From the NCBI GenBank assembly GCA_951406725.2, contig OX597820.1:21452001-21516000 (forward strand): a stretch of 64,000 bases of DNA. Direction: 5' to 3'. The stretch's first letter is position 1. The number at the start of each line of letters is the position of its first letter. Below are positions 18,993 through 63,358 of this stretch, piece by piece. The stretch comes from Octopus vulgaris. Taxonomy: Eukaryota. The notes under the pieces are model-generated. The model searched no databases and was not told the DNA's origin. It saw only the letters and a list, made by a program, of their open reading frames with translations. The translations under genes and the position numbers were made by a program.

Positions 18993-19175
18993 CTCCTTTT
19001 CTTTAATTCTATGTTGTAATGTTGGCCAATCAGGAATCACATCTGCCAAAGATGCTCGACGCATCTGTCGAGAATTGCGACGCTGGTTTTCAAGAGCCTC
19101 AAGTTTTTCGGCCGACACTTTCATGATGGGTAAGTCAGTGCTCTCAACTGACTGTCGTCGGCTGGATGAATCTTT
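18993..19175 (-). CDS. unc-22: Twitchin exon with D1-type PKA phosphorylation site
   Basis: ctacag|AAA ... GAG|gtacac, 183 nt, phase 0-0. KDSSSRRQSVESTDLPIMKVSAEKLEALENQRRNSRQMRRASLADVIPDWPTLQHRIKEKE. Resembles the Mytilus D1 peptide RRPSLVDVIPDW (recalled, not aligned). Confidence 0.92.
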
Positions 19176-19745
19176 CTGTAGTAGACAGAGCAGGGCAAAC
19201 ATAAACTCACACATGCATGATGGCATCTCAAGACACAATTGATAAGAGGAAGTTTCAACCACATTCACTGCAGAAGTTGGTTTGGTGCTGTCAAATATTT
19301 ACTGATACTTACACATAACCTAGTAACAAACTTGAGCAATGTTGAAAAAAATGTAAAAGCAAGGTGAAGGATAATTTTTCAACTTATAAAAATGGATTTT
19401 TTTCAAAATGGAAAAGGAAAGAATGAAAAAATATTAGAAAAGAAGTACATTTTTGCTGATTAAAAGATATTAATTATTTTTTTTATTACCACATATTTAT
19501 GTTAATTGTATATTTGAGTTTAAAAAAGCACTAGATATACATAAGTTTTAATTGCTAATCTAATTTAATTTCATTAATTATTAAAAGCTAAAAATATATT
19601 TTTCTATTTAATTTTCTGATTTTCATGGTAGATGCAGCAAAACAAATCCAAAGTTCTCTTTGAATTTTCAGCAATAATTTATCTATGTTGCTGATGCACA
19701 TAAACATCTTATTCTTGAGTATTACAGTTTGAGTATTAAGTCATA

Positions 19746-19914
19746 CAGAAACTCAGTAGGTCGTCAGATACACACTGAAATATTTCCAGCATTCAGTTTG
19801 AAACTATTCCTGAATCAAAAAAACAGTTTATAAACTGCTAGTTTTTTCTGTATTTAAGAAACTACTTCCTATATGTTTATTTGTAAAATAATAACTACAT
19901 TTAGCGAATGATTT
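19746..19914 (+). repeat. 169-bp direct repeat, copy 2
   Basis: Matches 18324-18492. Confidence 0.92.
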
Positions 19915-20467
19915 TAATATTTCTCCAGCCCTAGAACTTGGCACATCATTTCTGCATAAAAAGAAATGAAATGATTCTGATTAAGTTTCAAAACCAGATT
20001 GTAGATATGTGAAGCTGGGAGCTTATTTCATACTACTAAACTGATTCAAAGTGAAGAATTTTATGTATGTCTCTTCGATATATTTTGAAATACATGTGAA
20101 AATACATGTAATGCCTTCACTTTTGATTTTATAACAAATAGAAATAAATGCTTTCTGTTTTTGATATTTTGATATTGTTAAACATAATTGATTTGACTTT
20201 CATCATAATTGCAGCAGTTTTCTATTCCTTTGTTAAATTATTATTATTTTTCTTTTTGTCTTGACCATGAAGAGGAATCAGTTTTTAGAGTTTAGTATTG
20301 AAAGGGTTTATATCATATATTAAGACTGGCTGATATCTTTAAACTATGATACCCACAATGAGACTATGAATTAAATATTTAATCTGTTCAGTCTTTGGTG
20401 TTACAGATGATTTGAGATGATTTATATGATGTCCCACCTATGTCAGCATGGAAGGCGGACAATAAAC

Positions 20468-20499
<32 letters not shown>

Positions 20500-22448
20500 G
20501 TGAACAGGCTGATCACTCATTTTAAGACTGATATAGATATATTAGTAGAATTTTAAGTGAAACACTTGCTTCATTTACCTGAAACAATCATATGATTCAC
20601 TTCATCATACACAGTGGGTTAATCAAAAAGCCAGATAAATACTCATAATTCTATTTATAAATCTATTTGTATCTTAATTACATTGAGAAATGTAGATTGA
20701 CTGCATCTGAAATATTCATAGTTGCAAAAATTGTATTATTTCTCAAACAATTTTAATTATTCAGGATCTAGAATTCCTCATATGGGTAGTGGTAGATAAT
20801 AAAGTAGACTACAAAAAAAATGCATTTTTAAATTTAGGTGATATCGGCATTTATTGTCTTTATATCTGTTACTGGAAAAAGCAGGTATTAAAATAAACTA
20901 CAATGAAAAAATGTTTCAAATCTTAAATGTGATTATTTTAGGGTCTCAAGTTTTTACATAGGGATTAACAAATAGGTTTAAAGGATTCACACGCGCTCTG
21001 TCAGCTATGATCAAAAGAAAAGCAAGTGAAGGGAAGAAAAGAAGCTCAAAATTCATGCTGTGCTCTTAAAGTATGTAAGTTAAGTATATTTGGGTTGAAT
21101 CACTGGTTCCTTTAAAATGGATATGCTTAGATTTCTTTGAGGAAGATGTAGTTCACAATAGTATATCATGAATGCATATACATAAATCAAAATATAAAAT
21201 AGATTAATAAAAAAAATAAGACTAGAATATTCTAGATTTCCTGCTGAATAAAGCAAAAAATAAAGTTTGAAGATATTAAAGGGGAGAAAGAAAAATAAGT
21301 GACAAAAGCATTTCTTCGTGTTGAATATTTCTGTGGAAGGAAATCTGACATGAAAAATAGAATTAAATAATGCACCTGTGCAAAAGAGATGCTAAAAATT
21401 AAAATATACTTACTTCTTAATGAATTTATATAATCACACCTGAGATTTAATTACAATAAAGGCCTGATATTTATGCTTTACACATTGCATGATGGAATAA
21501 AAGACAGTTACAAACACACAAAAAGACAACTTGACAAACCCAGACATATTTAATGTAACACAACAAAACAAACTAAACCAATCCAAACAACAAAAAAAAA
21601 AACAGAAAAAGAAAACCACACAGTGAACACTGTATAATGTGGCAGATCTCAAATCTATTTTAGTCTAACAGTACAAAATAAACATTAATTAAAACTTATA
21701 AATTTAAAATTATATATTTTTGATAAACTTCAAAAATATATAATTTTAATTTTATAAGTAATGACAAAAGGTAAACTTAATTTATGAGAGACATCAATTG
21801 TAAAATTACAATTGATTCTCTTATTTTACTTTTGTTTTATATTCCATATTTGTATGATGTGCTACACATGTGAAAGATTGTTTATGCTACATAAACATAT
21901 CTTTAAATAATAGCTATATTAACTGTAGCACACCATACAGTAACTTAACTATAACTGTTCTTCAAAAACAGAATAGATAAGTTTGTCTGTAACTCATTTT
22001 GGCAGATACACTTATTTTTTTGTTGAGTCATGTTTCCTGTTATTTTAAAATAGCAACAAAAATTACGTTTTGTTACTGTTAGTCACTTTACAACCACACT
22101 GACAAAAGTCTTTCTAATCAACTTAAGAAACTAAGAGCAATTCAAAACCAATTTCCATTTGAAGAATTATAATACTAAAAGAAAGACTGATAAAATAAAA
22201 TTCCTCTGAATATGAGTGCAGAGTGAAAAGTGAAGGAAAGAGCAATAAATATTAACAACAGTTACTAAGAATTAAATGAAACTTAAACTATGTGATCTAA
22301 ATATTGTGGATAATATGTAAGCTAGATAGTCTGGAAAATAGCTAAAGTTGGAAAGCTGACCTGGGTAGCCAGCTTAGCTTGTCACAAATTTACTTACAAT
22401 ATTTCAATGTTACTCAATAACTATATTAACTTATTCATATTCTTTTAT

Positions 22449-22600
22449 TCTTTTACTTGCTTCAGTCATTTAGCTGTGACCATGCTGGGGCACTGCTGTT
22501 AGTTGAACAAATCGACCCCAGGATTTATTCTATCGGTCTCTTTTTGCTGAACCACCAAGTAGTGGGGATGTAAACACAGCAACATTGGTTGTCAAGTGAT
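22449..22600 (-). mobile_element. SINE family A, 3' fragment
   Basis: cttttacttgcttcagtcattt...catgctggggcactgc matches the family A tail. Confidence 0.7.
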
Positions 22601-23696
22601 AGTCCCTAAGACTGGTAGGACGAAGTTATCCCCAGACCAGAGTTCTGGTTCAAATACTAACAACATAGTGTACTCCACTAAAGTCATCTGATGTGAAATC
22701 AAAAGGTAGATTTATGTAAAATATTGATATAAAGTGATGGTGACATAAAAATAGTTAATTTTACTTAAATCTGTTACAAAAAACGATTTAGTGTATTATT
22801 AAGGATAAATTTAATAAATCATATGAACATTTTTATTAGTCATATAATTATTTATTTTCATGTTTTTAAAGGGGATAAATCAAGTTATCCAATATTCAGA
22901 ATGCCTCAATATTTTACTGAGCCAGTTAGCTATGTAGTTAGGTGGATGGATTGCCTATAGCTTAAAAGTAACATTTCAGAAGTTGTTATATATATATATA
23001 TATATATATTTCTTGACTATTTCCTTACATTCTAATATAAATAATAAGTATTATGTACATGATATTGATAATGTGCTTCAATAAAATTTTCATCAATCTT
23101 AAAATACATGAGCAATGAAATATGATGTACATAATTCTGATGAAATAGTCTATCACTCAATTCAGAGGAATTAATGGTAAAAGGAAAGAAATGATATATC
23201 AAATAGATCAAGGCAAGTACTCACCTATTCTGGAAGATAGTGTCGAATTATAAACTTAAAGTTAAACTTGCAATTTCTCAAAAATAACATTTCAGTGTAA
23301 CATTTCAGGAAGTATATATTAATGATGAAAGAAAAAAAATCAGAAAATCCTGCCTGAGAGATATTATTTTCTGTCATTTGAAAAATTAGTATTCTTGTGA
23401 ATATTATAGAAACGAAAATAATATTCTACATGAATACTAATCTAAGAGCTAATATTTCCGTTCTTCATAAAAGATTTTCAGATTTTTTTCTTTTTTTTTT
23501 AATGTTTGTTTCCTTTTCCTGAATGTTGTGTATTAAAACAACAACGTATCAACCATAGGCTTAATGATCCCAACAAACAAATTCAAAATCAATAAATATT
23601 AAGTTAGTGAACTACTCTAAATACAGACACACAACACGCGCGAGCAAGAGTCCACAGACTAGGGAAGTTTCTGCCAGAAACTTGAGTGAAACATGC

Positions 23697-23738
23697 CTTT
23701 TTCCTGTCGCCAGCCTCATCCTCATCGTCGGTGTAATC
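23697..23738 (-). CDS. unc-22: Probable 42-nt cassette exon of the twitchin linker (GC donor)
   Basis: Pyrimidine tract tttttttcctctcaaag|GAT. Reads DYTDDEDEAGDRKK. Donor AAG|gcatgt, or CAA|gtttct giving 57 nt from 23682. Both are phase 0-0, matching the neighbouring exons. Confidence 0.65.
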
Positions 23739-23956: not shown

Positions 23957-24009
<53 letters not shown>

Positions 24010-24057: not shown

Positions 24058-24058
24058 A

Positions 24059-24123: not shown

Positions 24124-24520
24124 CAACGACAACAACGACAACAATAATAATAATAATAATGATCGTTTAACCACTGCTTTCCATGCTAGCATGGGTTGGA
24201 CGATTTGACCGACTTCTGGCAAACCAGATGGCTGAACCAGGACCCCCATCTGATCTAGCAGAGTTTCTACAGTTGGATGCCCTTCCTAACACCAGCCACT
24301 CCCAGAGTGTAGTGGGTGCTTTTACGTGCGACTGGCACAAGGGCCAGTCAGGCGGTACTGGCAACAGCCACACTCAAGTGGTGTTTTTTACATGCTATCT
24401 GCACAGGAGCCAGTCCAGCAGCACTGGCAACGACCTCGATCGAATGTTTTTCACGTGCCGCCAGCACAAGTGCCAGTAAGGCGACGCTGGTAACGATCAC
24501 ATTTGAATGGTGCTTTTTCC
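24058..24520 (-). mobile_element. Retroposon (SINE/LINE-tail type) with internal tandem subrepeats and adjacent (TAA)n tract
   Basis: GC-rich unit with repeated ccagt...ctggcaac...tgttttt modules. The terminus ccatgctagcatgggttggacg recurs as fragments at about 20430-20500, 45150-45235 and 46390-46460. Confidence 0.65.
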
Positions 24521-25127
24521 AATCATAATAATAATAATGGTTTCTACTTTATGTGCAAGGTCAGCAATTGCTGGCCTTCTTCTATAAACCCTAGTACTTG
24601 ACTGGAACTTTATTTCATTGACCTCTACCCCCAACAGGTTTAAAAGCAAAGTGATGGATTATAATAGACATTTGGATTATTACTGATATTACTTGTCATC
24701 ACATATACAATATATAACCAAATTATTTCAAACATTAATATTACAAAGTAGCCAATTTGCAAAGTAAACTAGTTTGTTTAATTTTCAGTTTGACTATTTC
24801 GTACTATAAGTAATATATTTTGTGAAATAAACTATGTCTACACGCTAATATTTTAACATTGAATAACTCTATAATAAGGATTAAATAGGGTTACAAATAA
24901 TCATTAGTCTCAAAAATAAACTTGTATCTGTATGTTTGTCGAACAACAAAGCATTTGAAATGCTTTTTGCTTATAAATAGGTGGCAACAAACTATATAGA
25001 TTCTTGTTCATATATTTCAATTTTATAAAAATTACTGATTGTGCCTCATTATGCATTAATTAATAGTCCTCCAAATGCTTACAAATTATGTTAGATAGCT
25101 ATTTTATGTGCATTCACTAACATTTGA

Positions 25128-29776: not shown

Positions 29777-29871
29777 CTTTTCATCTTCACTATCACTTCC
29801 AGCCTTCTCAGTTTTCTTCAAACTCATACGTGTCAGCTCAATCTGAGACAATCTCCTACCAGATTTGTCAA
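29777..29871 (-). CDS. unc-22: Twitchin linker exon with RRLS PKA site and LKKT motif
   Basis: ttccag|TT ... AAG|gtaagg, 95 nt, phase 1 to 0. (V)DKSGRRLSQIELTRMSLKKTEKAGSDSEDEK. Needed to connect the phases of the flanking exons. Confidence 0.88.
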
Positions 29872-32394
29872 CTGGAACATAGGAAAGACAGATATTGGAG
29901 CAAAGTGTTACAGAAACGCTCATTGCGAACGGCCATGTCCCATATTCAAGAGTTACAGTTTATGCCGTATTTTTTCATATCTAATACATTTCTCATTGGG
30001 AGACATTTTTATACTTACTTTTTACGTGTATTTACCTTATCCAAAAGATATTTAATTGGTACTGCAACCAAAACACATATTGGCAAAGTTAAAATGTTTG
30101 CTACTAAAAAAACAATGCTGCCTTACGACTAGATATTAATGAAAGTATAAAATTTGATATCCAAAATATATAGAATGAATATATACATAATATAACACTT
30201 TTAAGGCTTATGATCAACTACAATTTCCAAAGGTGCAGTGAATAAATGAGAAAATGTGAAAATCTGATATTCTTCATAAGAAGGCAAAATAGTGAAAGAT
30301 ATTTTCTTATTGAATAAATGTAGAATAAATGTTTTTCATGAACATACGCATTGCCATTGTAGTGAAGTTTGATTGAAGACTGATCAACTACATAAATCAT
30401 GCACTTTTCTCATCTTTATGCTGAAATGCTGATATCAGTTTGTTTTTATTGTGATTTGAAATATTCTTAGATTTGTCAATTATACATAATTTAAAACATT
30501 ATTTAAAAAAAAGACAATTTAACTATGACAGAAAATATTTTATAAGCCAGATTCAAAAAAATATGAATATTTTTAGTGTTAAAAGCAAAAAATTAAACAT
30601 TTATCATGCAGTGTAATTTAGATAACTGTTATCCATGTAACAGTACATTTACAGATTATTTAAATCAGAGAATTTTCTTTTGTTTGCTACTTTTCCAAAT
30701 ATATTTCTTGCATTCAAATCGCCATTATCATTTACTGACTTCTTTGTATTATTCTGGATTTGTATTAATAATTAATAATGCAAGCAATTATAATAGTTGT
30801 CCATGATTACTATGATTATTGTAGCAGTCACTGTGTGTTCCACATGTGCATTCTTAATTTGAGTATGATTGATTGATTCTAGTTTCAGCTCATGAGCTGT
30901 GGCCATGCTGGGGCACCGCCATGTATGTGTATAGTTAAATAGCTTTTACTCATTAAAAAGAAAAGTATAAATAAATTGGTAATTGATAATTAGTAGGAAA
31001 AAAAAATAAATGGATTATAAAAATTTAAAAAAGGAAATGAAATCTTGTAAAATAAAACAGCGAAAAAAAAGAAAAGAAATATAATACATTTAGTAAAAAC
31101 TTTCACTTCTTGGATTTTCTGGAAAAAGAAGTAAATAACAACACAAAAAAATTAGAAAAATATTTAATGATTTTTCTAACCTCACTATACTATTATATAT
31201 TGCCATAGTAAAATAGGCAACAACAGATAATACTAGATTATCTACTTATGTAAACAAAAACCCATATGAATGATGGTAAATATTTACCCCCAGAAAATTA
31301 TTTATAATAATATAATGATTTCCGCGAATTTGATACTTGGCCAATTTTGTCATAGATTAAGTGAATTGATAGCCAAAAGTATCACAGACAAAGTTCACTC
31401 TTCAGAGATTTGAACCCTGAACCATGAAATACCAAGCCGGATGGAACAAAACTTCCACAAACATATACCAAGTTATTAGAAATTTATTTGAATGATTTAT
31501 TTCTATTTTTGATGTTGGTTCTTGAATTTTAACCAGAATTGTATTATTCTTAGCATATTCAAATAATTCTAAAACTATATTTTGGAATAATTTACTTAGT
31601 GAAGGAGTTGGCCAATTTTAATAATTTAAATTATATTTTTCTTTTACTTATTAGTTTACATTAATAATACAAATTAATTGTATAATACTGGTAGTATAAT
31701 TTACTTTTATATCCATAGATATAATTGACAATAGAAAAAATTCAAAGTTTGGCAATTATAATTTGTATTTTATATAAATACTCTTTAAGGATAAAAAAAA
31801 AATTAAATAAGGAAGTAAAAAGCAAAGGCAGAAACACGCATAAAATTTTTTAAAATATCAATTATCTCTACCATTACTGTGGAAATATGAAACAATTTTT
31901 AATAATAATATAATATAAATGTGTGTGTGTATATTTTAAGTTAAGTGTTATTTGAAACATAAATAATATCATTAACTGTATTGAATTAACACCTGCAAGA
32001 ATTTTCCCCTTAAAGAATAGCAAAATTATATTTCATCTAATTCTGTATGAGATGTACAAGCAGGCTGTATAATATGCTTGGCTCATACCTAGAAGTAAAT
32101 TTTAGTTTCATTTAAGTGTTTTAGATAAATATTATCAAGGTGAAGTTGAGATGAATAATATCATTAAATTTTAATTACAAAAACGTGGAAAATTTTAAGT
32201 CAGTATATATTTATCGGTATTCATTATTTCCAAGCTAATTAAATAGTTGCATACACACACATGAAAAACAAAATGTATCATAACCAAGTTGTCAAACTTA
32301 AAAAGTAAATGTATATCTAGAGTTGAAACCAGCTGATCTGATTTAAAAATTGGACTACTATTAATTATTGAAATATCAAGAATTATGTAGACCA

Positions 32395-32856
32395 GAAGAG
32401 GATCTACCCGCATGGTTCATGGTCTCAAAAATTTGTCCTACGAAGAAAGGCTGAGGACGCTCGACCTTTATTCTCTTGAAAAACATCGCCGCCGTGGTGA
32501 TCTCATTCTCACCCACAACATCATAAGCGGAAAGTGTAACCTCTCGAAAGAGCTGTTCTTCACTCCTGCTCCAGAGCGTCGGCTGCGGGGTCATTCCGAA
32601 AAGCTCTACCTGCGACGATTTCATCTCAATCGAAGGAGAGGAGCTTTCTCCGTCCGGGTTGCGGATCCATGGAACAAGCTGCCAGACGAGATGGTGAAGA
32701 TGCCGACGACCGCTTTGTTCAAAGCCTCCCTTGACCTCAAGTGGCCTGAACTCTTTACATGAACACCACCCTGTACTTAACTCCATGTCCCCCTACATGG
32801 CCTTGCTATTTGCTTTTGAGCCAAATTAACTAACTAACTAACTAACTAACTAACTT
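32395..32856 (+). mobile_element. CR1-clade LINE 3' end with (TAAC)n tail
   Basis: ORF 32412-32762 GLKNLSYEERLRTLDLYSLEKHRRRGDLI...RLRGHSEKL...FSVRVADPWNKLP is the typical CR1 ORF2 C-terminus. Short 3' UTR then (taac)n. Confidence 0.88.
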
Positions 32857-32860
32857 AACA

Positions 32861-33130
32861 ATGATCTCAATATTTAAGTTGCAATATTCTGGTTATATTA
32901 TGCATAGAAAATCCCTGGAGAAGGACATCATGCTCGGAAGGGTCAGTGGCAAGAGAGGAAGAGGCCGAACAAGAACCTGCTGGCCTGACACCATCAAGAG
33001 TGACACGGGAATGGACATAGCCAATCTGATAGAAGCAACCCAGGATAGAACTGGCTGGAGGATACTGATCCATCGAATAACCGAGAGTCAACTTCGACTG
33101 AGCGGATAGATAGATAGATAGACAGACAGA
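32861..33130 (+). mobile_element. RTE/BovB-like LINE 3' end with (GATA)n tail
   Basis: KLQYSGYIMHRKSLEKDIMLGRVSGKRGRGR...WPDTI...QDRTGWRILIHRITESQLRL resembles the BovB/RTE C-terminus. Confidence 0.85.
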
Positions 33131-34908: not shown

Positions 34909-34983
34909 CTGTCTGACCCTTGTCAATTTTTTTAAGTTGGTGATTTCCCTTATTGTTTCCATCATCGGCTTTGTCACGTTTTA
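34909..34983 (-). CDS. unc-22: Probable 75-nt symmetric cassette exon of the twitchin linker
   Basis: catttttcag|TA ... ACA G|gtataa, phase 1-1, open frame (V)KRDKADDGNNKGNHQLKKIDKGQT. Hydrophilic composition like adjacent exons. Confidence 0.72.
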
Positions 34984-37427
34984 CTGAAAAATGAGCACAC
35001 TAAATGAGCATTCCACTCTATTTCATTAGCATTATGAAAAATGACTAAATCGCTTTGTGCACGCTGGGCGCTGTACTTTGCAGTTTGCTGTTGCATAGAG
35101 TTCGCAGTAGTTTTAGGAAAACTGAATCCTCCCCTTTTGCTTTCTTTGCCTTTGAGCAGCAGATTGCTTTACCATTTTGCTTTCGCACAAAATAATTAAT
35201 GTTATGCAGCTTGCGATCAGTAAGTTAAGTGAAGCGCAAAACAAATAACGAACGCGCAGAAGATTAGCAAAGCGGACAGAAAAGAAAAAAAAATTTTCCA
35301 GCAAGGACCACTTTCACAAACACATACGCAAACACATACATATAGACATTTGTCCAGAAGAAGGCATACTCATCAACAGATAATTTAAAAGTTCAATAAT
35401 CTGTTCCAAGTGATCCATATTTTTTTTACTTGTAAGAACTGTTTATTTGTATTCATATATACAAGCATACATATAAACATACATACACTTACACACATAC
35501 ATACATATACACACAACACATATGTGTGTATATGTATGTATGGTTTCAATTTCTAGTGTATGTATTTAAAATATGTATTATTTAAATATGCAATATCTGG
35601 AAAGCTTGATGTTAAAATGATGATGATCATCATCATCATCATTAATTTGTCATTGCTGGAAACCATTATCTATTAAAATTTAGACCAAATGTGATAATAA
35701 GCTTCAAACTTATGCAGTAACTGGGACACCTTTTTACATATGTTTGTTGTTTTTAATTACTATTTCTTTCTCTTTTTTTTTTTTTGTTTTAGTAGAACTA
35801 AATATTTTTATAAAAGTTTCTATTATCATACTGTTTTACTTTCTGCTTGAACTTTTGATTACTCTCATAATTAGTGATTAAACTTTACCAATTAGTTATC
35901 AATTAGAACATAGTCTATGTTAATTAAAATAATGAGAGTGATAAAAAATTTCTTGATAACTGATGAAGTAACTTGTGATAATAGAACTCTTTGTATCCCA
36001 TTTTATCAAATAGTTATTGCTAATATAACTTCAATAGTTAAAGGTCATAATCAATATTGTTATATTTTTAATTATGATAAATAAAAAATATTGGAGCTTT
36101 GTTCAAAGATTTTATCGTGTTTGGTCTAAAAAACATAAAGCATAACAACATCTAGACTAAGAAAGAGAACATAGATGTGAGAGTGTTGTGATAGAAGAGC
36201 TTTGTACAACAAACACATTGACAAGCGAAAGACAAAACAACAAATATATTTTAGAAATGTCAAGAAGAGATTGCCAGATTGAGAAGAAATATTTCGCCAG
36301 ACAAGGAACATAATAAATGATGCATCCTATGCAAGTCATACCGGAGTCTGAAACAAAGAAATAAAATGGAGCATTTGGCATGTACACTAAAAATTGGCTT
36401 GATGGGATAAAGCATAGTTTTTCAGCATATTTATCTAAAGAGCGCAGCTTATACTTATCAAATACCTATGATGTACATTCGAATTCAAATGAGTGAGGTA
36501 CTAGCCTATTTTGATCAATATAGATACAAAAAAGTAGAAAACAGGATCTAGAAAAATAGCATGAGCGCATTATGTTTATAGATTTATGATCATTATTTTA
36601 GCATATTAGACTTTGATGAAAATATAGCGCCAGTTTTTAAAAGTTTCTCATGAAATTTGCTCCCTTATGGAGTTTATAGTATCAATGTAACCATATCTAG
36701 AATCGATATGTTTCAAAACAAAAAAAGCTGTCAAGAAAAATAAATTCAATAAATTAGGAACATATCTAATAAAAAGAATATTTAAATTATTATTATAAAT
36801 GTTTTTAAAATTCAGAATGGTGATAATGAAAATAGCAATGAAAATATTCAATGGCAATCAAAAAGGCATTATATGTTAAATATAAATTACAGGATAATAT
36901 ATATTGGTAAGGTTTATATCTAAGCAGGAGTAGAGGAACATTTATAATAGTTTGAAATAGTAAAATTGAATATCTGTGAAGAGATATATTACCTATGAGA
37001 AAAATGTTTATTATTTTGTATTAGTTTCTAATGATACATTCTATATTTGTTGCTGACCTTTAGCAGATTAATATCAAACTAATAAAAGTGATAATTCTAA
37101 TTTTTTAATATATTTCTTAGGAAATTATCCATCTTCGTCTATCGAAGTAAATAATAATATTAATAAGTTATTTCAGAAATGGGAATCAGTTCTTCTAATG
37201 CAAAGTTCATTTCAAATCTTCAGAATTTATTTTATGCAGAAATCTTTAATTTTTGTTGCCAGAATTCATTAATGCTTCCTTTATTATTTTAAATTCTAAT
37301 TGAATAGTTTATTTTAAGGAATAATTAAAAATTTCTTCTGAATTCCAAGGTCAATAATAAATATAGTAAACATACAAAATTCCTTTTTATGACTTGAGAT
37401 ACTCGATACAGAAAAACATATATTTAC

Positions 37428-37486
37428 CTGGTTTTAACTGGCCCCAATCCAAGTCATCATCATCATCAGCTGTCTTTTTATCACCT
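37428..37486 (-). CDS. unc-22: Twitchin linker exon
   Basis: ttaacag|A ... CCA G|gtaaat, 59 nt, phase 2 to 1. (R)GDKKTADDDDDLDWGQLKP. Confidence 0.88.
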
Positions 37487-37622: not shown

Positions 37623-37766
37623 CTCTTTTTTACTTGTTTCACTCATTTGACTGTAGCCATGCTGGAGCACCGCCTTTAGTAGAGCAAATCGACCCCAGGA
37701 CTTATTCTTTGGAAGCCTAGTACTAATTTTATTGGTCTTTTTTGCCGAACCGCTAAGTTACGGGGA
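37623..37766 (-). mobile_element. SINE family A, 3' fragment
   Basis: Reverse complement of 38205-38343. Confidence 0.8.
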
Positions 37767-37926
37767 AGAACGAGGGTTTACAGATATATTACTGTTCCTC
37801 TTTCATAAATTAGTCAGAATAGGACGGGCAGTGGCCATGTCCTTGAGATGGCTCTCTGAATCTGAGCAAAATGGTGTGACCAGTGTTTCACCTGCAATAG
37901 ACTAGGAGTGAAATTTGAAATATTAT

Positions 37927-38091
37927 AGGCGCAGGAGTGGCTGTGTGGTAAGTAGCTTGCTTACCAACCACATGGTTCCGGGTTCAGTCCCACTGCGTGG
38001 CATCTTGGGCAAGTGTCTTCTGCTATAGCCTCGGGCCGACCAATGCCTTGAGTGGATTTGGTAGACGGAAAACTGAAAGAAGCCTGTCGTA

Positions 38092-38140
<49 letters not shown>

Positions 38141-38343
38141 ATATGTTTGTGTGTATGTGTTTGTCCCCCTAGTATTTCTTGACAACCGATGCTGGTGTGT
38201 TTACGTCCCCGTCACTTAGCGGTTCGGCAAAAGAGACCGATAGAATCTAGGCTTACTAAGAATAAGTCCTGGGGTCGATTTGATCGACTAAAGGCGGTGC
38301 TCCAGCATGGCCGCAGTCAAATGACTGAAACAAGTAAAAGAGT
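37927..38343 (+). mobile_element. tRNA-derived SINE, family A, full length
   Basis: GGCGCAGGAGTGGCTGTGTGGTAAG (A box), GGGTTCAGTCCC (B box), internal TA/TG microsatellite, tail GAAACAAGTAAAAGAG. Confidence 0.9.
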
Positions 38344-38467
38344 ACTGAGGAGAAGTATGAAGAAATAAACCATTTCATTTCCCTATGATAAAACAACAGC
38401 AAGGATTATTTCACTGAAATGTTTATCCTTACATTCATATATTTCCTAATGGATAATTTTGTTCCAG

Positions 38468-39129: not shown

Positions 39130-39290
39130 TGCAGGAGTGGCTGTGTGGTAAGTTGCTTGCTTACAAACCACATGGTTCCGGGTTCAGTCCCACTGCATGG
39201 CACCTTGGGCAAGTGTCTTCAACTATAGCCTCAAGCTGACCAAAGCCTTGTGAGTGGATTTGGTAGACGGAAACTAAAAGAAGCTCGTCG

Positions 39291-39333
<43 letters not shown>

Positions 39334-39533
39334 TTGTGTGTCTGTGTTTGTCCCCCCACCATCGCTTGACAACCGATGTTGGTGTGTTCACGCCCCCGTA
39401 ACTTAGCAGTTCGGCAAAAGAGACCAATAGAATAAGTACTAGGCTTACAAAGAATAAGTACTGGGGTCGAATTGTTCGACTAAAGGTGGTGCTCCAGCAT
39501 GGTCGCAGTCAAATGACTGAAACAAATAAAAAG
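39130..39533 (+). mobile_element. tRNA-derived SINE, family A, full length
   Basis: Collinear with 37927-38343. Confidence 0.9.
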
Positions 39534-39821: not shown

Positions 39822-39867
39822 CTGTGTTTAAGTAATGAACGAAAATCTAAACTGGAATCTTTAGGAT
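39822..39867 (-). CDS. unc-22: Twitchin exon encoding the DFRxxL actin-binding motif
   Basis: ttctag|AT ... CAC AG|gtaagc, 46 nt, phase 1 to 2. (D)PKDSSLDFRSLLKH(R). DFRxxL is the smooth-muscle MLCK actin-binding motif also reported in molluscan twitchin. Confidence 0.9.
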
Positions 39868-40914: not shown

Positions 40915-41160
40915 CTTTAATGAAAACGCTGAAAGATGTTGAATCAGATGTGTATCCGTCATGTTCCAGCACCACAGAATATTTAGCCTCATCTTGAATT
41001 TTAGTTTTTTTGATTTCAAGACTGGCACATTTTAGCAAGTCATTGACACGGATAGCACAACGGGTGTCATTGACAATTTCACGTCCAGCTCGGTAGAATT
41101 TAACTTTAGGCATTGGACAGTCATTGGTTTCGATTTTGAATGTACATTTCAAAGCCTGGC
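40915..41160 (-). CDS. unc-22: Twitchin exon, body of an Ig domain (about Ig7)
   Basis: cttcag|GC ... AAA G|gtaagt, 246 nt, phase 1-1. (G)QALKCTFKIETNDCPMPKVKFYRAGREI...ASLEIKKTKIQDEAKYSVVL...SFSVFIK. Confidence 0.92.
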
Positions 41161-41307: not shown

Positions 41308-41779
41308 TTAAACCTTTTGATACCAACCTGGCTGAAACCACTTCTGGCTCTAGAGCATAAATGTCTTGTGTTCAAAAGTTCTGAATTAAAACCTTCCATC
41401 AAACCTAATGCCACAATTTATGTTCCTAACTCTAGCTTAATGATAACTAAGTTATTTTACTAAATTCTTTGTTATATTTAAAATTAATTGAAAGAAATAC
41501 AGAGCATCTCAACAGAAATACGGTAAAATATATAAGAGAGAAACAATTCCTAACCCTTTTGATACCAACCCACCTGAAACTGCATCTGGCTCTGTATATC
41601 ATATATCTTGTTTTCACAAGTTCTAAATTAGAATCTTCCACCAAACCTTCGTCACAATTTATGTTCCTCACACTAGCTTAATGATAACTAAATTATTTTA
41701 CTAAAATCCTTGTTATATTTAAAATTAACTGAAAGAAACAGAGAGCATCTCAATGGAAATATGGTAACAAAAGGGTTAA
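41308..41779. mobile_element. Two tandem copies of a ~230-bp TTAA-ended MITE (piggyBac-like)
   Basis: Copies start TTAAACCTTTTGATACC (41308) and TAACCCTTTTGATACC (41551). The second ends GGTAACAAAAGGGTTAA (inverted end). Internal sequences align. Confidence 0.75.
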
Positions 41780-42161: not shown

Positions 42162-42577
42162 AGGTGGTGAGCTGGCAGAAACGTTAGCACGTCGGGCGAA
42201 ATGCGTAGCCGTATTTCGTCTGCCGTTACATTCTGAGTTCAAATTCCGCCGAGGTCGACTTTGCCTTTCATCCTTTCGGGGGTGATAAATTAAGTACCAG
42301 TTACGCACTTGGGTTGATATAATCGACTTAATCCGTTTGTCTGTCTTTGTTTGCCCTCTCTCTGTTTAGCCTCGTGTAGGCAGTAAAGAAATAGGTATTT
42401 CGCCTGCAGCTACGTTCTGAGTTCAAATTCCGCCGAGGTCGACTTTGCCTTTCATCTTTTCGGGGTTGATAAATTAAGTACCAGTTACGCACTGGGGTTG
42501 ATGTAATCGACTTAATCTGTTTGTCTGTTCTTGTTTGTCCCCTCTATGTTTAGCCCCGTGTGGGCAATAAAGAAATA
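42162..42577 (+). mobile_element. tRNA-derived SINE, family B, with duplicated 3' body and 13-bp TSD
   Basis: TSD AGAATCATTGTAA at 42149-42161 and 42578-42590. Body repeated at about 42212-42393 and 42395-42577. Confidence 0.9.
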
Positions 42578-42861: not shown

Positions 42862-43074
42862 CTTTACTCTTTTACTTGTTTCAGTCATTTGACTGCAGGC
42901 CATGCTGGAGCACCGCCATTGGTCGAATAAATTGACCCCAGGACTTATTCTTTGTAAGCCCAGTACTCATTCTATCAGTCTCTTTTGCTGAAACACTAAG
43001 TTATGGGGACGTAAGCACACCAGCATCGGTTGTCAAGCAATGGTGGGGGGACAAACACAGACACACAAACATAT

Positions 43075-43125
<51 letters not shown>

Positions 43126-43287
43126 TACGACGGGCTTCGTTCAGTTTCCGTCTACCAAATCCACTCACAAGGCTTTGGTCGGCCCGAGGCTATAGTAGAA
43201 GACACTTGGCCATGGTGCCACGCAGTGGGACTGAACCAGGAAGCATGTAGTTGGTAAGCAAGCTACTTACCACACAGCCACTCCTGC
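42862..43287 (-). mobile_element. tRNA-derived SINE, family A, full length
   Basis: Reverse complement of the 37927 and 39130 copies. Confidence 0.9.
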
Positions 43288-43991: not shown

Positions 43992-44085
43992 CCTCAACAA
44001 CAACCTTGTTTTCTGCAGGTTTTGAAAATGTTGGGCCTTGTGGTCGGGCTCCCTTTTGAGCTTTTGAAGCTCTTCTTCCTTCATC
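43992..44085 (-). CDS. unc-22: Twitchin exon: RRAS site plus A-strand of Ig7
   Basis: ttacag|GAT ... GAG G|gtaagc, 94 nt, phase 0 to 1. DEGRRASKAQKGARPQGPTFSKPAENKVVVE(G). Confidence 0.9.
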
Positions 44086-50420: not shown

Positions 50421-50431
50421 CCTCTCTTTTC
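50421..50431 (-). CDS. unc-22: 11-nt microexon (G-K-E-R) of twitchin
   Basis: Pyrimidine-rich tract then caacaacag|GAAAAGAGAGG|gtaagt, with a perfect donor. Converts phase 1 (exon 63140) to phase 0 (exon 44085). Confidence 0.78.
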
Positions 50432-51845: not shown

Positions 51846-52019
51846 CTTCATCGTCTTCATTGAAGAAGTCGTCATCAGAAAGTCCATCATAGTCTTCAGT
51901 TGTAATTTCTGGACAAATATTGTGACCATTTGGTATGATCACTGTGTCATCCTCATCGGCTTCATAGCCGTCAGTGTCTGGCATTCCTCTCAATGAAGGT
52001 GGATACATGTTGATTCCAT
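51846..52019 (-). CDS. Probable acidic alternative exon (cassette or alternative first exon)
   Basis: Open Asp/Glu-rich frame DGINMYPPSLRGMPDTDGYEADEDDTVIIPNGHNICPEITTEDYDGLSDDDFFNEDDE(G). Donor GAA G|gtattt, phase 1. Acceptor uncertain (gtag| at 52019 or gaag| at 52028, both phase 1). Confidence 0.62.
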
Positions 52020-53929
52020 CTACATCCTCTTCATTGCGAACATAGCAAAGGCAGATACTCAAAATAAAGTATGATTGATGGTACGCATACCGCTTGCTTG
52101 CATGCAACAAATTTTAAATGAAAATTGGACCTTACAGAATTAATGTATATATATATATAGGGCTTCATGGAACCATTATATTTAGATGAATTGAAATATA
52201 AATGGTTGGATTAAAATATATTTTCACCAATCTGTATAAATGCTTATTCTTTTTGATAATGATAAATGACATAAATGTTTACGAAGTACTCTTTTACAGT
52301 AACAATCACAAATTGACTTTAAATCTTTCAGACAGTAACTCATCTCAAAAGAGGCTGATCCAATGAAATAGTTTTTTTTTTATATCTCGTGAAATCTTTA
52401 ACAACCACTAACCATTATACATTTCATGATGGCGAAGTCCTTAAAACTTAACCTATGCATTTTAAATTCAATGTTATTGGACATGTAGCATTAATTAGTA
52501 ATTTAAAGATATGTCGATGGTTTTTCCCATAACATTTTAAGTTAACAGCTTTTGGCTTTTTTTTTGTTTTTTTTCGGAATTCAGTTTGAATTCCGAATAG
52601 ATAACAGTTGTAGTTTACAACTAATATAACTTACTTTCATAAGTGAGGCTTACGAAAGGAAGGAACATATTGAATTTATAATTTACATACATATAAGTTC
52701 TATTGATAGCTTAATAATCATCATTTTCAAGTTTCATTGTCATATCTTATATATATCAATACTGACATCTTTCCAAAAGACTTTAGATTTAACCCATACA
52801 GTCAGTTATTTAACATTTACATTATTAAAATATCCAAATGAATTAATTAATTTTGTGTACATTTTGCTAAATAATGGTTTCAGATTCTTCAGTGCAATAA
52901 CATAAGTAGTCTTCATTCCCCAAAGATTCAAATCAACTTCTAAAAGCCAAAATTAATGTCCAACTTACATTCTGGCTTTTTATAAAATTATATAGGCTAT
53001 ATGTATTTCTTGCTATTTCAAATCAATTAAACAAAAGCAAAGCAAAAGTTTTACTTATAGTTCAGCAGCTATATCTTTAAAGATTCTTTCTCAAATGAAA
53101 TTAATTTTGAAAATTATTTTTTATATTTATTCTAAGTGTTTCAGTGCGGGAAATAAATTGCAGATTTCACAAGAAATAAATAATGTTACTGTCTGTATTA
53201 CAAAATTAATCTATTTGTAATTGATTCCTATTTAAAAGTACTTCATAATTATTACTTAAAATAATTAACATATAATTTGAGGACTTTAGCCTTTATGATT
53301 GAGTTTAACTATAATTTATATAAAACATAAATTTAACTGAACATCGTTTAAGATATTTGTTAAGATTACATGAACATATGACATAAAACAAGAATACAGA
53401 AGACATTATACAAAAATTACTCATGACAGTTGCACAAATAACAATTAGTTATAACAAAAACTACAACAGTGCTCTTATATATGTAATTATGGCATGAACG
53501 ATCATGAAACTACGAACATGATGCAATGTGAATGACGAATAGATAACAGATAACTGACAGGAACGTATCAAAACTATATCTTTATGACCAGCATTCATTG
53601 CAAACAGTAATAACAATGCATGATTTTTTTTTGGAAGATATTGATCGGAGCATGTAATCTACATTTTAGAGACTTAATTATCTGCAGAAACTATTCCGTG
53701 TAAATGAGATATATGCAATAATTATGCTATCTCAATGAACATGCATTTATGCTTATGTACATTCATATGTGGTTTCCTTTTCTTTGTGCATTTTATCCAA
53801 CTGATTATTATTATTATAGATTCCTGCTATTAATGTATTATTTATGTAATCAATTTTTTTGTTTCTCTACTTTTGCATTTTCATTAATATATTTATTAAC
53901 GATAAAAGGAATACTTGTTTGAATTTTTG

Positions 53930-59230: not shown

Positions 59231-59622
59231 TTATTATTATTATCATTATTATTATTATTACCATTATTATTATTATTACTATTGTTATTATCATTATTAT
59301 GTATTGCTGTTATTTTAATTTAGAGAAGCTTATTATTATTACTAATACTACCATTATTATTATCATAGAATACAAAAAATTATTTTTGCTGTTATTATTT
59401 TATTATTATTGTTATTAATGCATTTATTATTATTATTATTATTACTATTATTATTATTATTATTATCATTATGTATTGCCATTATTTTAATTTAGAGAAG
59501 CTTATTATTATTACTAATGCTACCATTATTATAATCATAGAATGCAAGAAATTATTATTGCTGTTATTACTTTATTATTATTGTCATTAATGCTTTTATT
59601 ATTATTATTATTGTTATTATTA
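59230..59622. repeat. (TTA)n-rich tract with an internal tandem duplication of about 170 bp
   Basis: ttattttaatttagagaagcttattattattactaat occurs at about 59310 and 59482. Confidence 0.8.
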
Positions 59623-60300
59623 AACGACGATGCATTGACAGAATTGATAAAGAAGCAGATAGTATGTAGTTACGCCTCTTTAAGGTCTGATTTTGAATCC
59701 TGCCAAGGTTATCCTCACTTTCCATCCTTCTGGGGTCAATAAAATAAGCACCAGTACCTGTGAAGTATTGCAGTTGAAATAAGTAACCATACCACTACCC
59801 CTAATTGTATGGCCCTGAATTCATTAAAGAAATCATTCTTATTTTCAAATAACGAAGCTAATTTACATGAAGATAAAGTTTTGTTGAGATTTGATATTAG
59901 TAACAAAATTTAGGAGACATGAATTACCCTATCTCTAATTTTTTTCTTTAATTCATTGACAAAATAGTTCACTACTATATTTTAGGTTAATTTGGCTAAG
60001 TTCTAGGAATCATTTTTAAATTACCTCTCCAATTATTAAACACTTTTTTTGTTGTATAGCTAAGTTACTTTTGCTAGTCATTATATCTTGATATAAAATT
60101 TTCATATAATATTGTAATATTAAATAAAATGTTCATATAATAACAGTCTTTGCATCATTTATTTTTATGAATTTTTCTTCAATAATACTATAATAGAATA
60201 GTATAGTATGCATCAAGCATTATCTGATATATATATATAAATTTTTTTGTAATGAGATAAAAAACCAAAGCTGAGTAGATTTTTGAACATTTATAGATAG

Positions 60301-60349
60301 GTCCTACAGCTGTTTCCAGGATATTTATTATATCCCTTCATCAGAGACG
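60301..60349 (-). ncRNA. Minimal type I hammerhead ribozyme motif (Penelope-like-element type)
   Basis: gtct-CTGATGA-a-GGGATAT-aataa-ATATCCT-g-GAAAC-agct-GTA-ggac. Intact core boxes, 7-bp stem II, palindromic stem III ACAGCTGT, 4-bp stem I. Confidence 0.68.
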
Positions 60350-60354
60350 TGTGT

Positions 60355-60425
<71 letters not shown>

Positions 60426-62630
60426 AAATGGTTTAAATTATATTTTTTAATCCAAGATAGGGCCTTCACTTTGAAATATTGAAACATTGAAATACAAGGT
60501 TAAAAGTACGAACCACTGGCTTGTATTAATAATTTTCATAACTTCCATTATTTTTGGGCTTTTAAAACAATGCTTGACTAATTTAAATACTACAATAATA
60601 TGCTTAAATGCAAAAAGATCTAACTGAAACTTTAAAAGGATATTTCAATTGAAGAACCTTGATGGTGTCTTATTTTCTATAAAATAGAGTTCATGTGTAA
60701 TACTATAATGGATGTACTTTTAAAATCACTTGTTATATTAGTGTATAATTCATTACCAATGTAATACTAATCATTTTGAAACTGAAGTTACTAAAATATA
60801 TATAACTTTGGAAATTGGAGCTTACCTCTGTTAAGAATTAAATCTTTCATATTTTAAAACAGCAAATGAATTTCTAATGAAAAATGATTATAGAGATTTC
60901 TTCTTTTTAAAAAATACATAATTTTGATGCATTAATTCAATTTTAAAGATTAAAATTTCAAATATTATTTACCTAACAAATTAAGTATAGAATAAATTAT
61001 TATTGTATGCTTTAGATAATTAATTTACTAAACCCAATATAGGTTCTTGCATTAAAATATAACGATCCATGCTGAAATATTTAACATGTTTTGTGGGAGA
61101 ATATGCTTCAAATGTTTACTATGGCATACGAATGAAGAACTAGATTTCTATCAAACACATACACCCATCATGCATACATAAATACATACATACATACATA
61201 CATACATACATACCTTAATGCATGCATACGTTATCATCACTAGGTTCCATTCATAAATTATCTTCACTGATGGTGATTTCATAAATTCCAAAATGGTTCA
61301 ATAATAGGAGTTAGTATTATAATTGAAATTAGTATGTAGAAGAATCGCAACCCCAATATGTTTCTCTATGCATATATATATATATATGAACTTGTATGTA
61401 TGCATATATATATATAAATATATATGTGGTGATTTGGTAGAGTTACAACACCTGAGTGCAAGGGTTGTGTTTGTATTTCATCCCATAGGTTCAGCAAATA
61501 AAGCCCCAGGCCAGTATTATCGATTCTTCACTCTCCTTCTCTCTAGGGGGAAATCAGCCATATTCAGAGTTAGAAAAAGATTAAGCTTCAAACACTTAAA
61601 AATGTGCAAGGTGCAAGACATATGTCATATGTCGCCACAGTGTCCCAACAACTTCACCTGGGCTATGATCATATATATATATATGTATATATATATACAC
61701 ACAAATGAAATCTGGAGAGCATAGCAGGACATTATTTATTTACAACATCCGTACATGTGTTTTGGTGCCAATCACAAAACAGGTTCCATCAGGATAGCTA
61801 TATGCAATCCTAGATCATCACATCATCAGAGGTTTCTGTTAGAAATGCTCCAAAGACCCTTAACAAGAAAGTTTGCCAAAATAACATGATTTCTTTTAAC
61901 AGGGGTCTTTTTTAAAGAATAAGGAATAAATTGAATTCTAAAATATTGCTTGTATTTTGAGCAACTGTAATTCTCAACAGATGAGGGTTCCACATTTTAT
62001 GGAAAATAAGACAACCTGCACAAATGATAAGTTAATAGTGATGGAATGCTTCTGCTGTACCTGAGCTCATTGCATCCATCAAATCAACATTGGTTATCCG
62101 ATGCATTATATACCACATGTCAAATGTCAAGGTTATCACAGAGCAACACAAAATAAAGTGTTTTACTCAAAAACACAATATATCACCTTGTCCAGAAATT
62201 GATCACGAGTGCAACACTGTAACCTCTAGGCCATTTACCTTCATTCTATCTCTATATATGGGTTCAATCCTACTGCATACCACATTGGAGAAGGGTCTTA
62301 TATCACACTGCAGAGTTAGTTAATGCCATGTGGATGGAAGTTGGTAGATAGAATTTACATAGAAGGCTGAAGGATGTATATCAGCAGGTGAACAGCAGAA
62401 TCAGTAAGCTCTAATATTTCGTTGCACACAACTTTGTTCTGATTGCAAATCCCACACTGGTTCCTTCTGATTTTCCATCTTCCAAAGTTGATAAAATATA
62501 CAGGAGTCAAAATGGTGTTGTTAATTAAAGAACAATGCTTGAAAGAGATGTCCTTGCACGACTGCCCTCCAATGACTTAAACCAACTCAATATATATATA
62601 TATATGAATTACATTTAAGTATAAAGCTAG

Positions 62631-62676
<46 letters not shown>

Positions 62677-62678
<2 letters not shown>

Positions 62679-62913
62679 CATGCACATACCTACACTCACT
62701 TAACTCATACACATGCACATTCATGCACACATACATACACATACATTACTGCTTACATATGTATTATATATATATACACACACAAATATATATATATATA
62801 TATATAATGCATGAACATACCTACACTCACTTCACTCACACACTCACTCATACACATGCACATTCATACACACATACATACACATACATATAGATTACTG
62901 CTTACGAATGTAT

Positions 62914-62940
<27 letters not shown>
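62677..62940. repeat. Tandem duplication (~130 bp) within CA/TA microsatellite
   Basis: atgcatgNacatacctacactcactt...attactgcttac occurs at about 62677 and 62807. Confidence 0.75.
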
Positions 62941-62948
<8 letters not shown>

Positions 62949-63139
62949 TTACATATTTATATATATATATGAGCAATAATGCTCAATAAACTGCCTTTTC
63001 TAGTTGGAAATACCCTTTTGATGAACAAAATGCCAACCTTTAGTTGTAATCTTCTTTAGCAGATCCTATGCCGCCATTACAAATGCCCATGCGGAATATC
63101 AGTAGAGGTTGGTTTCATTGTTGCATGCGCATTACCTAC

Positions 63140-63358
63140 CTTCTTCATACTCAAAAATAGTTGTAGGTTGTTTCCGATATGGCTGAGGAGACTTAGCCTT
63201 TTTTGGCATATCTTTGTTTGGAGCTTGGAATTGGGGTGAGGGAGATCGGGATTTTGGTGTTTTACCTGCATCCTCATCAGCGATGGGCTCATTGACAGTG
63301 GGAAGAGGCGGCTGTGGCGCGGGCGCGGGCGCTTCTTCTTTCGGCTCTGGTTCGGCAG
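63140..63358 (-). CDS. unc-22: Twitchin PEVK-like exon
   Basis: atcacag|CT ... GAA G|gtaggt, 219 nt, phase 1-1. AEPEPKEEAPAPAPQPPLPTVNEPIADEDAGKTPKSRSPSPQF...IFEYEE(G). GC-rich against an AT-rich background. Confidence 0.88.

What the first reader, a model, noticed from the sequence alone, without database searches (positions are those of the whole stretch)
18993..63358. Catch-muscle regulatory region of twitchin built as a modular exon kit in a cephalopod-type genome
Seen: Ig8-Ig11 exons are packed into 5 kb, while the few-hundred-residue PEVK/Ig7/linker region is spread over about 58 kb. It contains several symmetric, skippable exons (219, 174, 75, 42 and 183 nt), with DFRxxL on its own exon and RRxS sites spread over three. 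Established: in bivalves, PKA phosphorylation of twitchin D1/D2 releases catch, and the D1 region is alternatively spliced. Inference: combinatorial splicing could tune stiffness, actin tethering and PKA sensitivity among arm, sucker, mantle and skin-papilla muscles.
Basis: partly seen in the sequence, partly recalled or inferred. Interest (0 to 1): 0.75.

Follow-up and report, generated by a model that had tools for sequence, protein, structure and literature searches.

The report
Octopus twitchin splices out catch site
The octopus gene for the giant muscle protein twitchin has optional exons in a regulatory linker, and RNA reads show that the exon matching the mussel catch-release site D1 is usually left out; this likely tunes how muscles hold tension, but mussels, scallops and snails splice the same region, so it is a known kind of switch.

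Summary
Real, but a known kind. The window holds the PEVK–Ig7–D1 region of octopus twitchin (minus strand): 12 exons (1,259 nt) in 58 kb, against Ig8–Ig11 in 5 kb. Splicing is shown. Raw RNA reads of a related octopus join the 95-nt hub exon upstream to a 6-nt microexon or a 75-nt exon, and downstream mostly to the acidic 42-nt exon; the D1 exon (183 nt) took 13 of 205 listed downstream junction reads. Octopus gene models agree. Corrections: '174' is 183 nt; the 219-nt exon is never skipped but has an inner donor (93 nt); the DFRxxL exon (46 nt) and the RRxS exons of 94 and 95 nt cannot be skipped singly; 6- and 11-nt microexons were missed. The kit is not a cephalopod invention: Mytilus, oyster, scallop, Mya, abalone and snail models vary at the same joints, and D1 splicing is published for Mytilus. 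Octopus D2 is degenerate. Muscle-type specificity and catch function are untested. Value: ready probes for an open question on cuttlefish papillae.

The parts
63140..63358 (-). PEVK-like exon, 219 nt, phase 1/1, with an inner donor at 63266 giving a 93-nt form; the 126-nt extension ends in a conserved YxKQPTTIxE motif
   Evidence: 11 of 13 octopus models use the short form, 2 the long; extension conserved in an unnamed relative P0387 (82% over 38 aa) and in bivalves/gastropods
51846..52028 (-). Acidic cassette exon, 183 nt (not 174), phase 1/1, net charge -19, DGYEAD motif; weak acceptor and donor
   Evidence: models P0271 and P0267; homologous motif in scallop, oyster, Mytilus; not tested with reads
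50421..50431 (-). Obligatory 11-nt microexon, phase 1/0
   Evidence: only match to the pattern demanded by the models; skipping shifts the frame
43992..44085 (-). Constitutive 94-nt exon: RRAS site and first strand of Ig7 (Mytilus numbering), phase 0/1
40915..41160 (-). Body of Ig7, 246 nt, phase 1/1
   Evidence: Pfam I-set E=1e-7
39822..39867 (-). 46-nt exon with DFRSLL (DFRxxL), phase 1/2, not skippable alone
   Evidence: present in 13 of 13 octopus models that reach it
37428..37486 (-). Constitutive 59-nt exon (acidic stretch, DWGQLKP), phase 2/1
   Evidence: its end is read in junction reads
36342..36347 (-). 6-nt microexon (Asp-Ser), phase 1/1, strong splice sites
   Evidence: single site found; 55, 123 and 33 junction reads in X21-X23 and a contig of X2; in 1 of 13 octopus models
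34909..34983 (-). 75-nt cassette exon, phase 1/1, basic
   Evidence: in 8 of 13 octopus models; 13, 17, 15 junction reads
29777..29871 (-). Constitutive 95-nt hub exon with RRLS (aligns with Mytilus RRPS Ser-1012), phase 1/0
   Evidence: 375 reads laid in three runs, none in the flanking introns
23697..23738 (-). 42-nt acidic cassette exon (net -4), phase 0/0, GC donor in this genome
   Evidence: in 3 of 14 octopus models; consensus of 59, 106, 27 downstream junction reads
18993..19175 (-). D1 cassette exon, 183 nt, phase 0/0, three RRxS sites; RRASLADVIPDWP is the orthologue of Mytilus D1
   Evidence: in 6 of 14 octopus models; 7 and 6 junction reads in X22, X23, none listed in X21; Mytilus motif serine at 1076 in P0277
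4794..5061 (-). Ig8 exon, 268 nt, phase 0/1 (common acceptor after the linker)
   Evidence: Pfam I-set E=1.2e-15
1453..3416 (-). Four exons of Ig9 and Ig10 (3416-3277, 2720-2582, 1932-1811, 1606-1453); Ig11 begins near 101

Best explanation
This is the PEVK-Ig7-D1 linker of octopus twitchin, in which optional exons are spliced in or out around a fixed core, and this likely sets how far protein kinase A can regulate the predicted actin-binding tether, by a switch likely inherited from the common ancestor of molluscs. Shown: the core (Ig7, DFRxxL, two RRxS sites) cannot be dropped exon by exon; the 6-, 75-, 42- and 183-nt (D1) exons are alternatively joined in RNA; D1 is the minor choice in three runs of unknown tissue. 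Shown in gene models only: the long PEVK form plus the acidic 183-nt exon; isoforms with neither the 42-nt nor the D1 exon. Inferred: isoforms with D1 carry five PKA consensus sites and a phosphorylation-released tether as in Mytilus catch muscle; isoforms without it carry two sites and a shorter, more acidic linker and serve phasic, non-holding muscle; the long introns and G+C-richer intron ends hold splicing-control elements.
For: Reads: upstream of the hub exon, 6-nt microexon 55/123/33 and 75-nt exon 13/17/15; downstream, 42-nt consensus 59/106/27 with agreement 0.77/0.70/0.96 (the disagreeing part is likely direct joining to Ig8, estimated 30%, 39%, 5%) and D1 none listed/7/6. Models: D1 in 6 of 14, 42-nt in 3 of 14, neither in 5 of 14. 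Frame logic. D1 orthology: RRPSLVDVIPDW serine at 1076 and D2 at 4317 in M. galloprovincialis P0277 against 1075 and 4316 in PMC12040844 section 1.1.1.4. Same joints vary elsewhere: D1 present in 12 of 15 Mytilus, 6 of 17 scallop, 13 of 15 Mya, 9 of 10 Haliotis, 9 of 10 Biomphalaria models; small inserts at the microexon slot in scallop, Mya, Gigantopelta, oyster, Mytilus; KQPTTI and DGYEAD motifs present or absent together in Octopus (2/11), Mytilus (10/4), oysters (2/11), Littorina (9/2, one split). PMC6059360 (passages) cites Kusaka 2008 for a D1 isoform specific to catch muscle.
Against: No tissue labels for the runs; they come from one study of a related species, about 6% of each run read. 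The D1 share does not differ significantly between X22 and X23 (7 of 113 vs 6 of 33, p=0.07). No phosphorylation or binding was tested. Octopus D2 aligns as KRKRVS (O. bimaculoides RRKVRVS) against Mytilus RRSRRPS, and three gastropods have no serine there, so the two-site Mytilus mechanism is not fully conserved. All listed models of Littorina (12 of 12), Gigantopelta (5 of 5) and Lingula (7 of 7) keep D1. Muscleblind- and Rbfox-type motifs upstream of the optional exons exceed the constitutive exons (2.8 vs 0.5 YGCY per 100 nt) but not dinucleotide shuffles (p=0.09-0.32). Gene models are predictions and not independent of each other.
Confidence: 0.7

Rival explanations
1. One reading: a cephalopod-built, freely combinatorial exon kit that gives each muscle type (arm, sucker, mantle, papilla) its own stiffness, actin tethering and PKA sensitivity.
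For: Five optional elements plus an inner donor exist; the 75-nt share differs between runs (p=0.004); cuttlefish papillae show a serotonin-released catch-like state (PMC6059360 Discussion); the 75- and 42-nt peptides have no evident sequence likeness to the bivalve and snail inserts at the same slots (by eye).
Against: The slots and several motifs are shared with bivalves and gastropods; DFRxxL is constitutive; choices look coupled; no tissue data.
Confidence: 0.15
2. The variation is tolerated drift in a disordered linker, or follows development, individual or non-muscle cell type; it has little effect on mechanics, and D1 serves general cAMP control of relaxation and not catch.
For: D1 motif is found in Lingula, Owenia, Tubulanus, Watersipora, Seison and Schistosoma, and DFRxxL in mosquito and deuterostome twitchins, animals not known for catch (recalled); D2 degenerate in octopus; no Pfam family in the optional exons (3 of 3 tested); PMC6059360 itself notes that catch-like holding may not need D1.
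Against: Slot positions and motifs have been kept across bivalves, gastropods and cephalopods, and the same 61-codon-scale D1 block is removed in each, which is unlike noise.
Confidence: 0.14
3. The candidate cassettes are chance AG..GT open frames in long introns, or all exons are constitutive.
For: Weak splice sites on the acidic 183-nt exon and a GC donor on the 42-nt exon.
Against: Junction reads for four cassettes, matching gene models, exact chain reconstruction.
Confidence: 0.01

Closest known systems
Mytilus galloprovincialis twitchin D1-region isoforms (Kusaka et al. 2008; seen only as cited in PMC6059360, details recalled)
   Same: Same protein, same linker between Ig7 and Ig8, same D1 motif, D1 removed by splicing at the same joint (Mytilus models P0273, P0283, P0286), DFRxxL and upstream RRxS retained.
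   Different: Octopus has a 42-nt acidic exon as main downstream choice, a 6-nt microexon and a 75-nt exon; D1 is the minor form in the runs laid; D2 is degenerate; catch function and tissue pattern not shown.
RefSeq twitchin isoforms X1-X8 of Octopus bimaculoides (XP_052825203-211)
   Same: Already annotate the 75-nt, 42-nt and D1 choices and the 93-nt PEVK form.
   Different: None of the 8 has the 6-nt microexon, the long PEVK form or the acidic 183-nt exon; automatic annotation without interpretation.
Scallop, oyster, Mya, abalone and snail twitchin isoforms
   Same: Variable inserts at the same two slots and in the PEVK region; co-included KQPTTI and DGYEAD motifs. Scallop twitchin splice variants reported in PMC5963113 (passages).
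   Different: Scallops replace D1 by a long block; five oyster models drop Ig7 to Ig8 altogether; in oyster, Littorina, Gigantopelta and Biomphalaria the slot-2 insert occurs together with D1.
PEVK splicing of Drosophila projectin and vertebrate titin (recalled)
   Same: Small symmetric exons in a low-complexity spring region of a titin-family protein.
   Different: There the aim is spring length; here the optional exons carry PKA sites and charge; no call tested this.

Membership tests
Twitchin (UNC-22/projectin) family | Ig and Fn3 repeats with one C-terminal MLCK-like kinase | tested here: met
   P0262: 26 I-set, 15 fn3, 1 Pkinase; its exons map across the window and flanks up to residue 3996
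Twitchin (UNC-22/projectin) family | N-terminal Ig block split by a PEVK-like linker | tested here: met
Molluscan catch-type twitchin (Mytilus) | D1 PKA site between Ig7 and Ig8 | tested here: met
   RRASLADVIPDWP on the 183-nt exon aligns with the Mytilus motif whose serine is at 1076 (review); optional in octopus
Molluscan catch-type twitchin (Mytilus) | DFRxxL motif after Ig7 (its actin-binding role is recalled) | tested here: met
   DFRSLL on the 46-nt exon; also in non-molluscan twitchins
Molluscan catch-type twitchin (Mytilus) | D2 PKA site (RRPS) between Ig21 and Ig22 | tested here: inconclusive
   Octopus has KRKRVS or RRKVRVS at the aligned place: serine kept, RRxS consensus lost
Molluscan catch-type twitchin (Mytilus) | D1 region alternatively spliced | tested here: met
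   reads and models
Molluscan catch-type twitchin (Mytilus) | D1-containing isoforms mark catch muscle | not testable with these tools
   runs carry no tissue labels
Molluscan catch-type twitchin (Mytilus) | PKA phosphorylation releases actin binding and tension | not testable with these tools
   needs biochemistry and mechanics
Mutually exclusive exon pair (42 nt / D1) | never spliced together | tested here: inconclusive
   0 of 14 models carry both, about 1.3 expected by independence (3 x 6 / 14); both together keep the frame and lie 4.5 kb apart; the joint behind the 42-nt exon was not read

The most novel reading that the evidence does not exclude
Octopus has true twitchin-based catch, switched by splicing: smooth holding muscles (papillae, suckers) include the D1 exon, while the bulk of muscle swaps it for the acidic 42-nt exon, which acts as a built-in mimic of the phosphorylated, released state (three RRxS sites, net +3, replaced by a DDEDE stretch, net -4). 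One exon choice would decide whether a cephalopod muscle can hold tension without nerve input.
Probability: 0.2. Interest if true: 0.7.

Novelty: new member of a known kind. Interest (0 to 1): 0.38.

Why it matters
Gonzalez-Bellido et al. 2018 (PMC6059360) wrote that confirming bivalve-type catch in cephalopod papillae needs labelling against the D1-containing twitchin isoform. This locus gives the exact exon and junctions for such probes and shows that D1+ and D1- forms both exist in octopus, with D1+ in the minority in the runs laid. It also shows a shared molluscan design of the linker (two variable slots around a fixed RRxS exon; a co-included KQPTTI/DGYEAD pair), and a dominant 6-nt microexon missing from 12 of 13 gene models. 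The principle itself is known from Mytilus and most of the isoforms are already annotated.

Tried and rejected
Word-index search with the D1 exon alone found nothing (57 candidates, none scored). The whole-library search with Ig8 was swamped by multi-Ig proteins and gave few twitchins. The run search listed no holder on record as RNA; raw-read runs of a related species were laid instead. Only the 95-nt hub exon was laid: the joints behind the 42-nt and D1 exons and all PEVK-region joints remain unread, so mutual exclusion and the acidic 183-nt exon rest on models. The 69 loose letters of the X2 contig were considered as evidence on exclusion and rejected (any acceptor gives that length). A Muscleblind/Rbfox control was suggested by eye; it passed mononucleotide shuffles (p=0.0002, 0.003) and failed dinucleotide shuffles, so it is only a lead. 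My first reading that the '75' was the 95-nt exon was wrong, as was reading the Asp-Ser insert as an alternative acceptor. The D1 pattern missed Lingula (0 of 7); one search corrects it to 7 of 7; fragments under 1,500 aa or without the anchors were dropped before the counts, and cluster lists show at most 15 members (of 20 octopus, 93 Mytilus, 94 oyster, 33 scallop, 22 Biomphalaria, 19 Mya). No squid or cuttlefish full-length twitchin was found. Paper searches; none returned a study of cephalopod twitchin splicing (twitchin+DFRXXL 0; microexon+octopus+cephalopod+splicing 0), but subscription journals are not covered. Kusaka 2008, Butler 2010 and Funabara 2007 were not held; no supplements were read. 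Earlier-findings look-ups returned nothing.
Full report
Identity. The window lies at G000:C7:21452001-21516000 and holds part of a twitchin gene on the minus strand. A model from a contig of the same length, P0262 (4,810 aa), has 26 I-set, 15 fn3 and one kinase stretch and maps exon by exon from about 79 kb upstream of the window to the end of the 60 kb fetched downstream. The closest named models are Octopus bimaculoides twitchin isoforms.

Anatomy. Between the PEVK-like exon (63358) and Ig8 (5061) lie 12 exons of 219 (or 93), 183, 11, 94, 246, 46, 59, 6, 75, 95, 42 and 183 nt. All have AG acceptors; donors are GT except GC on the 42-nt exon. Chains built from these coordinates reproduce P0262 (309 aa) and P0267 (500 aa) exactly. 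Single skipping keeps the frame for the 219, acidic 183, Ig7 body, 6, 75, 42 and D1 exons and breaks it for the 11, 94, 46 (DFRxxL), 59 and 95-nt exons. The introns here are long: median 4,521 nt (13 introns) against 1,080 nt for all 52 mapped downstream (p=1.6e-5); the 12 upstream gaps have median 1,581 nt but include one of 45 kb, so long introns are not unique to this region.

Is it spliced? Gene models (15 of 20 cluster members listed, 14 covering the region): 75-nt exon in 8 of 13; D1 exon in 6 of 14, 42-nt exon in 3 of 14, neither in 5 of 14, both in none; long PEVK form with the acidic exon in 2 of 13, short form without it in 11. Reads: three raw RNA runs of organism A (a related species, reads mostly 95-99% alike, one study, tissue unknown, about 6% of each run) and contigs of X2 were laid on the 95-nt exon; 105, 201 and 69 reads lay on it and none in the flanking introns. 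The loose ends, read by eye against the window, are: upstream, the 59-nt exon plus six extra letters (55, 123, 33 reads) or the 75-nt exon (13, 17, 15); no plain 59-to-95 row was listed. The six letters are a microexon at 36347-36342 with clean splice sites, present in only 1 of 13 models. Downstream, the consensus is the 42-nt exon (59, 106, 27 reads; agreement 0.77, 0.70, 0.96) or the D1 exon (none listed, 7, 6). The disagreeing reads break at the same place as the 42-nt ones and are likely direct joins to Ig8 (estimated 18, 41, 1 reads; inferred, letters not shown). D1 took 13 of 205 listed downstream reads (6%). X2 contigs, with no differing letters, show the 6-, 75- and 42-nt joints. The 75-nt share differs between X22 and X23 (p=0.004) and not between X21 and X22 (p=0.21); the D1 share does not reach significance (p=0.07).

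Which site is D1? In M. galloprovincialis P0277 the RRPS serines are at 1012, 1076 and 4317; the review PMC12040844 (section on twitchin read) gives D1 as Ser-1075 between Ig7 and Ig8 and D2 as Ser-4316. So octopus RRASLADVIPDWP on the optional 183-nt exon is D1, and RRLS on the fixed 95-nt exon matches Ser-1012. At D2 octopus has KRKRVS (O. bimaculoides RRKVRVS), and Biomphalaria, Haliotis and Littorina have no serine.

Is it cephalopod-specific? No. D1 is missing from 3 of 15 Mytilus, 11 of 17 scallop, 2 of 15 Mya, 1 of 10 Haliotis and 1 of 10 Biomphalaria models, cut at the same joint; five oyster models lack Ig7 to Ig8 altogether. The slot of the 6- and 75-nt exons holds variable inserts in Mytilus, oyster, scallop, Mya and Gigantopelta; the slot of the 42-nt exon holds variable inserts in oyster, Mytilus, Littorina, Gigantopelta, Haliotis and Biomphalaria, in several of them together with D1. 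The PEVK extension and acidic exon carry KQPTTI and DGYEAD motifs that are found, and come and go together, in Mytilus, oysters and Littorina; scallops mostly carry only the second and Mya only the first by my patterns. Littorina, Gigantopelta and Lingula models all keep D1. The D1 motif also occurs in annelid, nemertean, bryozoan, rotifer and flatworm twitchins, and DFRxxL in mosquito and deuterostome ones, so these features predate bivalve catch.

How it most likely works. Fixed core, optional regulation: every isoform keeps Ig7, DFRxxL and two RRxS sites; the D1 exon adds three more sites and 61 residues (net +3), the 42-nt exon 14 acidic residues (net -4), the 75-nt exon 25 basic ones, the acidic PEVK exon 61 residues of net -19. 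By analogy with Mytilus, where PKA phosphorylation releases twitchin from actin, D1+ forms would be the phosphorylation-released tether and D1- forms a less regulated one. This step is inferred. The intron ends upstream of the optional exons are richer in G+C (0.35 vs 0.23) and in YGCY and GCATG words than 52 constitutive ones, but the words do not beat dinucleotide shuffles; control by Muscleblind or Rbfox (names recalled) is a lead only.

Literature seen. PMC12040844: passages and the twitchin section. PMC6059360: passages and first part of the Discussion; it reports a serotonin-released catch-like state in cuttlefish papillae, cites Kusaka 2008 for a catch-specific D1 isoform, calls for labelling it, and warns that D1 may not be needed. 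PMC5963113: passages; three scallop twitchin splice variants. Kusaka 2008 and Butler 2010: titles in reference lists only; their content and the actin-binding role of DFRxxL are recalled. Six searches returned no study of cephalopod twitchin splicing within the open library.

Verdict. Observation partly confirmed with corrections; alternative splicing shown; interpretation partly supported. New member of a known kind, largely annotated already; its worth is a corrected exon map, a dominant unannotated microexon, the finding that D1 is optional and minor in octopus, and a direct handle on the open question of catch in cephalopod skin. Interest 0.38.

Noticed in passing
G000 just upstream of the window (window-scale 72733-72718 and 74434-74051): A 16-nt microexon (KAAPK, phase 0/1) follows a 128-residue Lys/Glu-rich exon; its phase would allow a direct join to Ig9 or Ig10, the block skip seen in five oyster models and one scallop model. 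No octopus model shows it.
   Followed up: partly
P0270 (O. bimaculoides, 320 aa) and window-scale 143232-89724: RefSeq splits the first three Ig domains off as a separate 'disorganized muscle protein 1-like' gene, while P0262, P0267 and P0272 keep them in twitchin; oysters have similar short 'CAVP-target' models. Annotation split or a real short N-terminal isoform.
   Followed up: no
P0262 residues 1-1028: A crude motif count gives 8 Ig domains before DFRxxL in octopus against 7 in oyster, so 'Ig7' of Mytilus numbering may be the eighth here.
   Followed up: partly
P0259 vs P0196 and P0263, near residue 3877: O. bimaculoides models differ by a 13-residue insert at the end of the kinase, and X8 stops there, lacking the C-terminal Ig domains and the D2 region.
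   Followed up: no
window 51845-51793 (-): The frame of the acidic exon stays open 17 codons past its weak donor to a stop, also in unnamed P0384; an alternative last exon giving a short N-terminal twitchin is not excluded.
   Followed up: no
window 41309-41767 and 42211-42577: Two local tandem duplications (241 bp x1.9, 184 bp x2.0) in the intron that splits Ig7.
   Followed up: no
window 32379-33106, 13905-14177, 24170-24548, 6170-6349: G+C-richer intronic stretches with short open frames that look like retroelement remnants (RTE-type LINE ends, recalled); three were scanned, no Pfam match. Dispersed SINE-like repeats recur near 4200-4700, 12236-12550, 37657-38365, 39164-39508, 43000-43250.
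   Followed up: partly
window 52039-52029 and 29930-29920 (-): The same 11-mer stands just upstream of the acidic exon's acceptor and about 50 nt upstream of the 95-nt exon's acceptor; possibly a shared splicing element, possibly chance.
   Followed up: no
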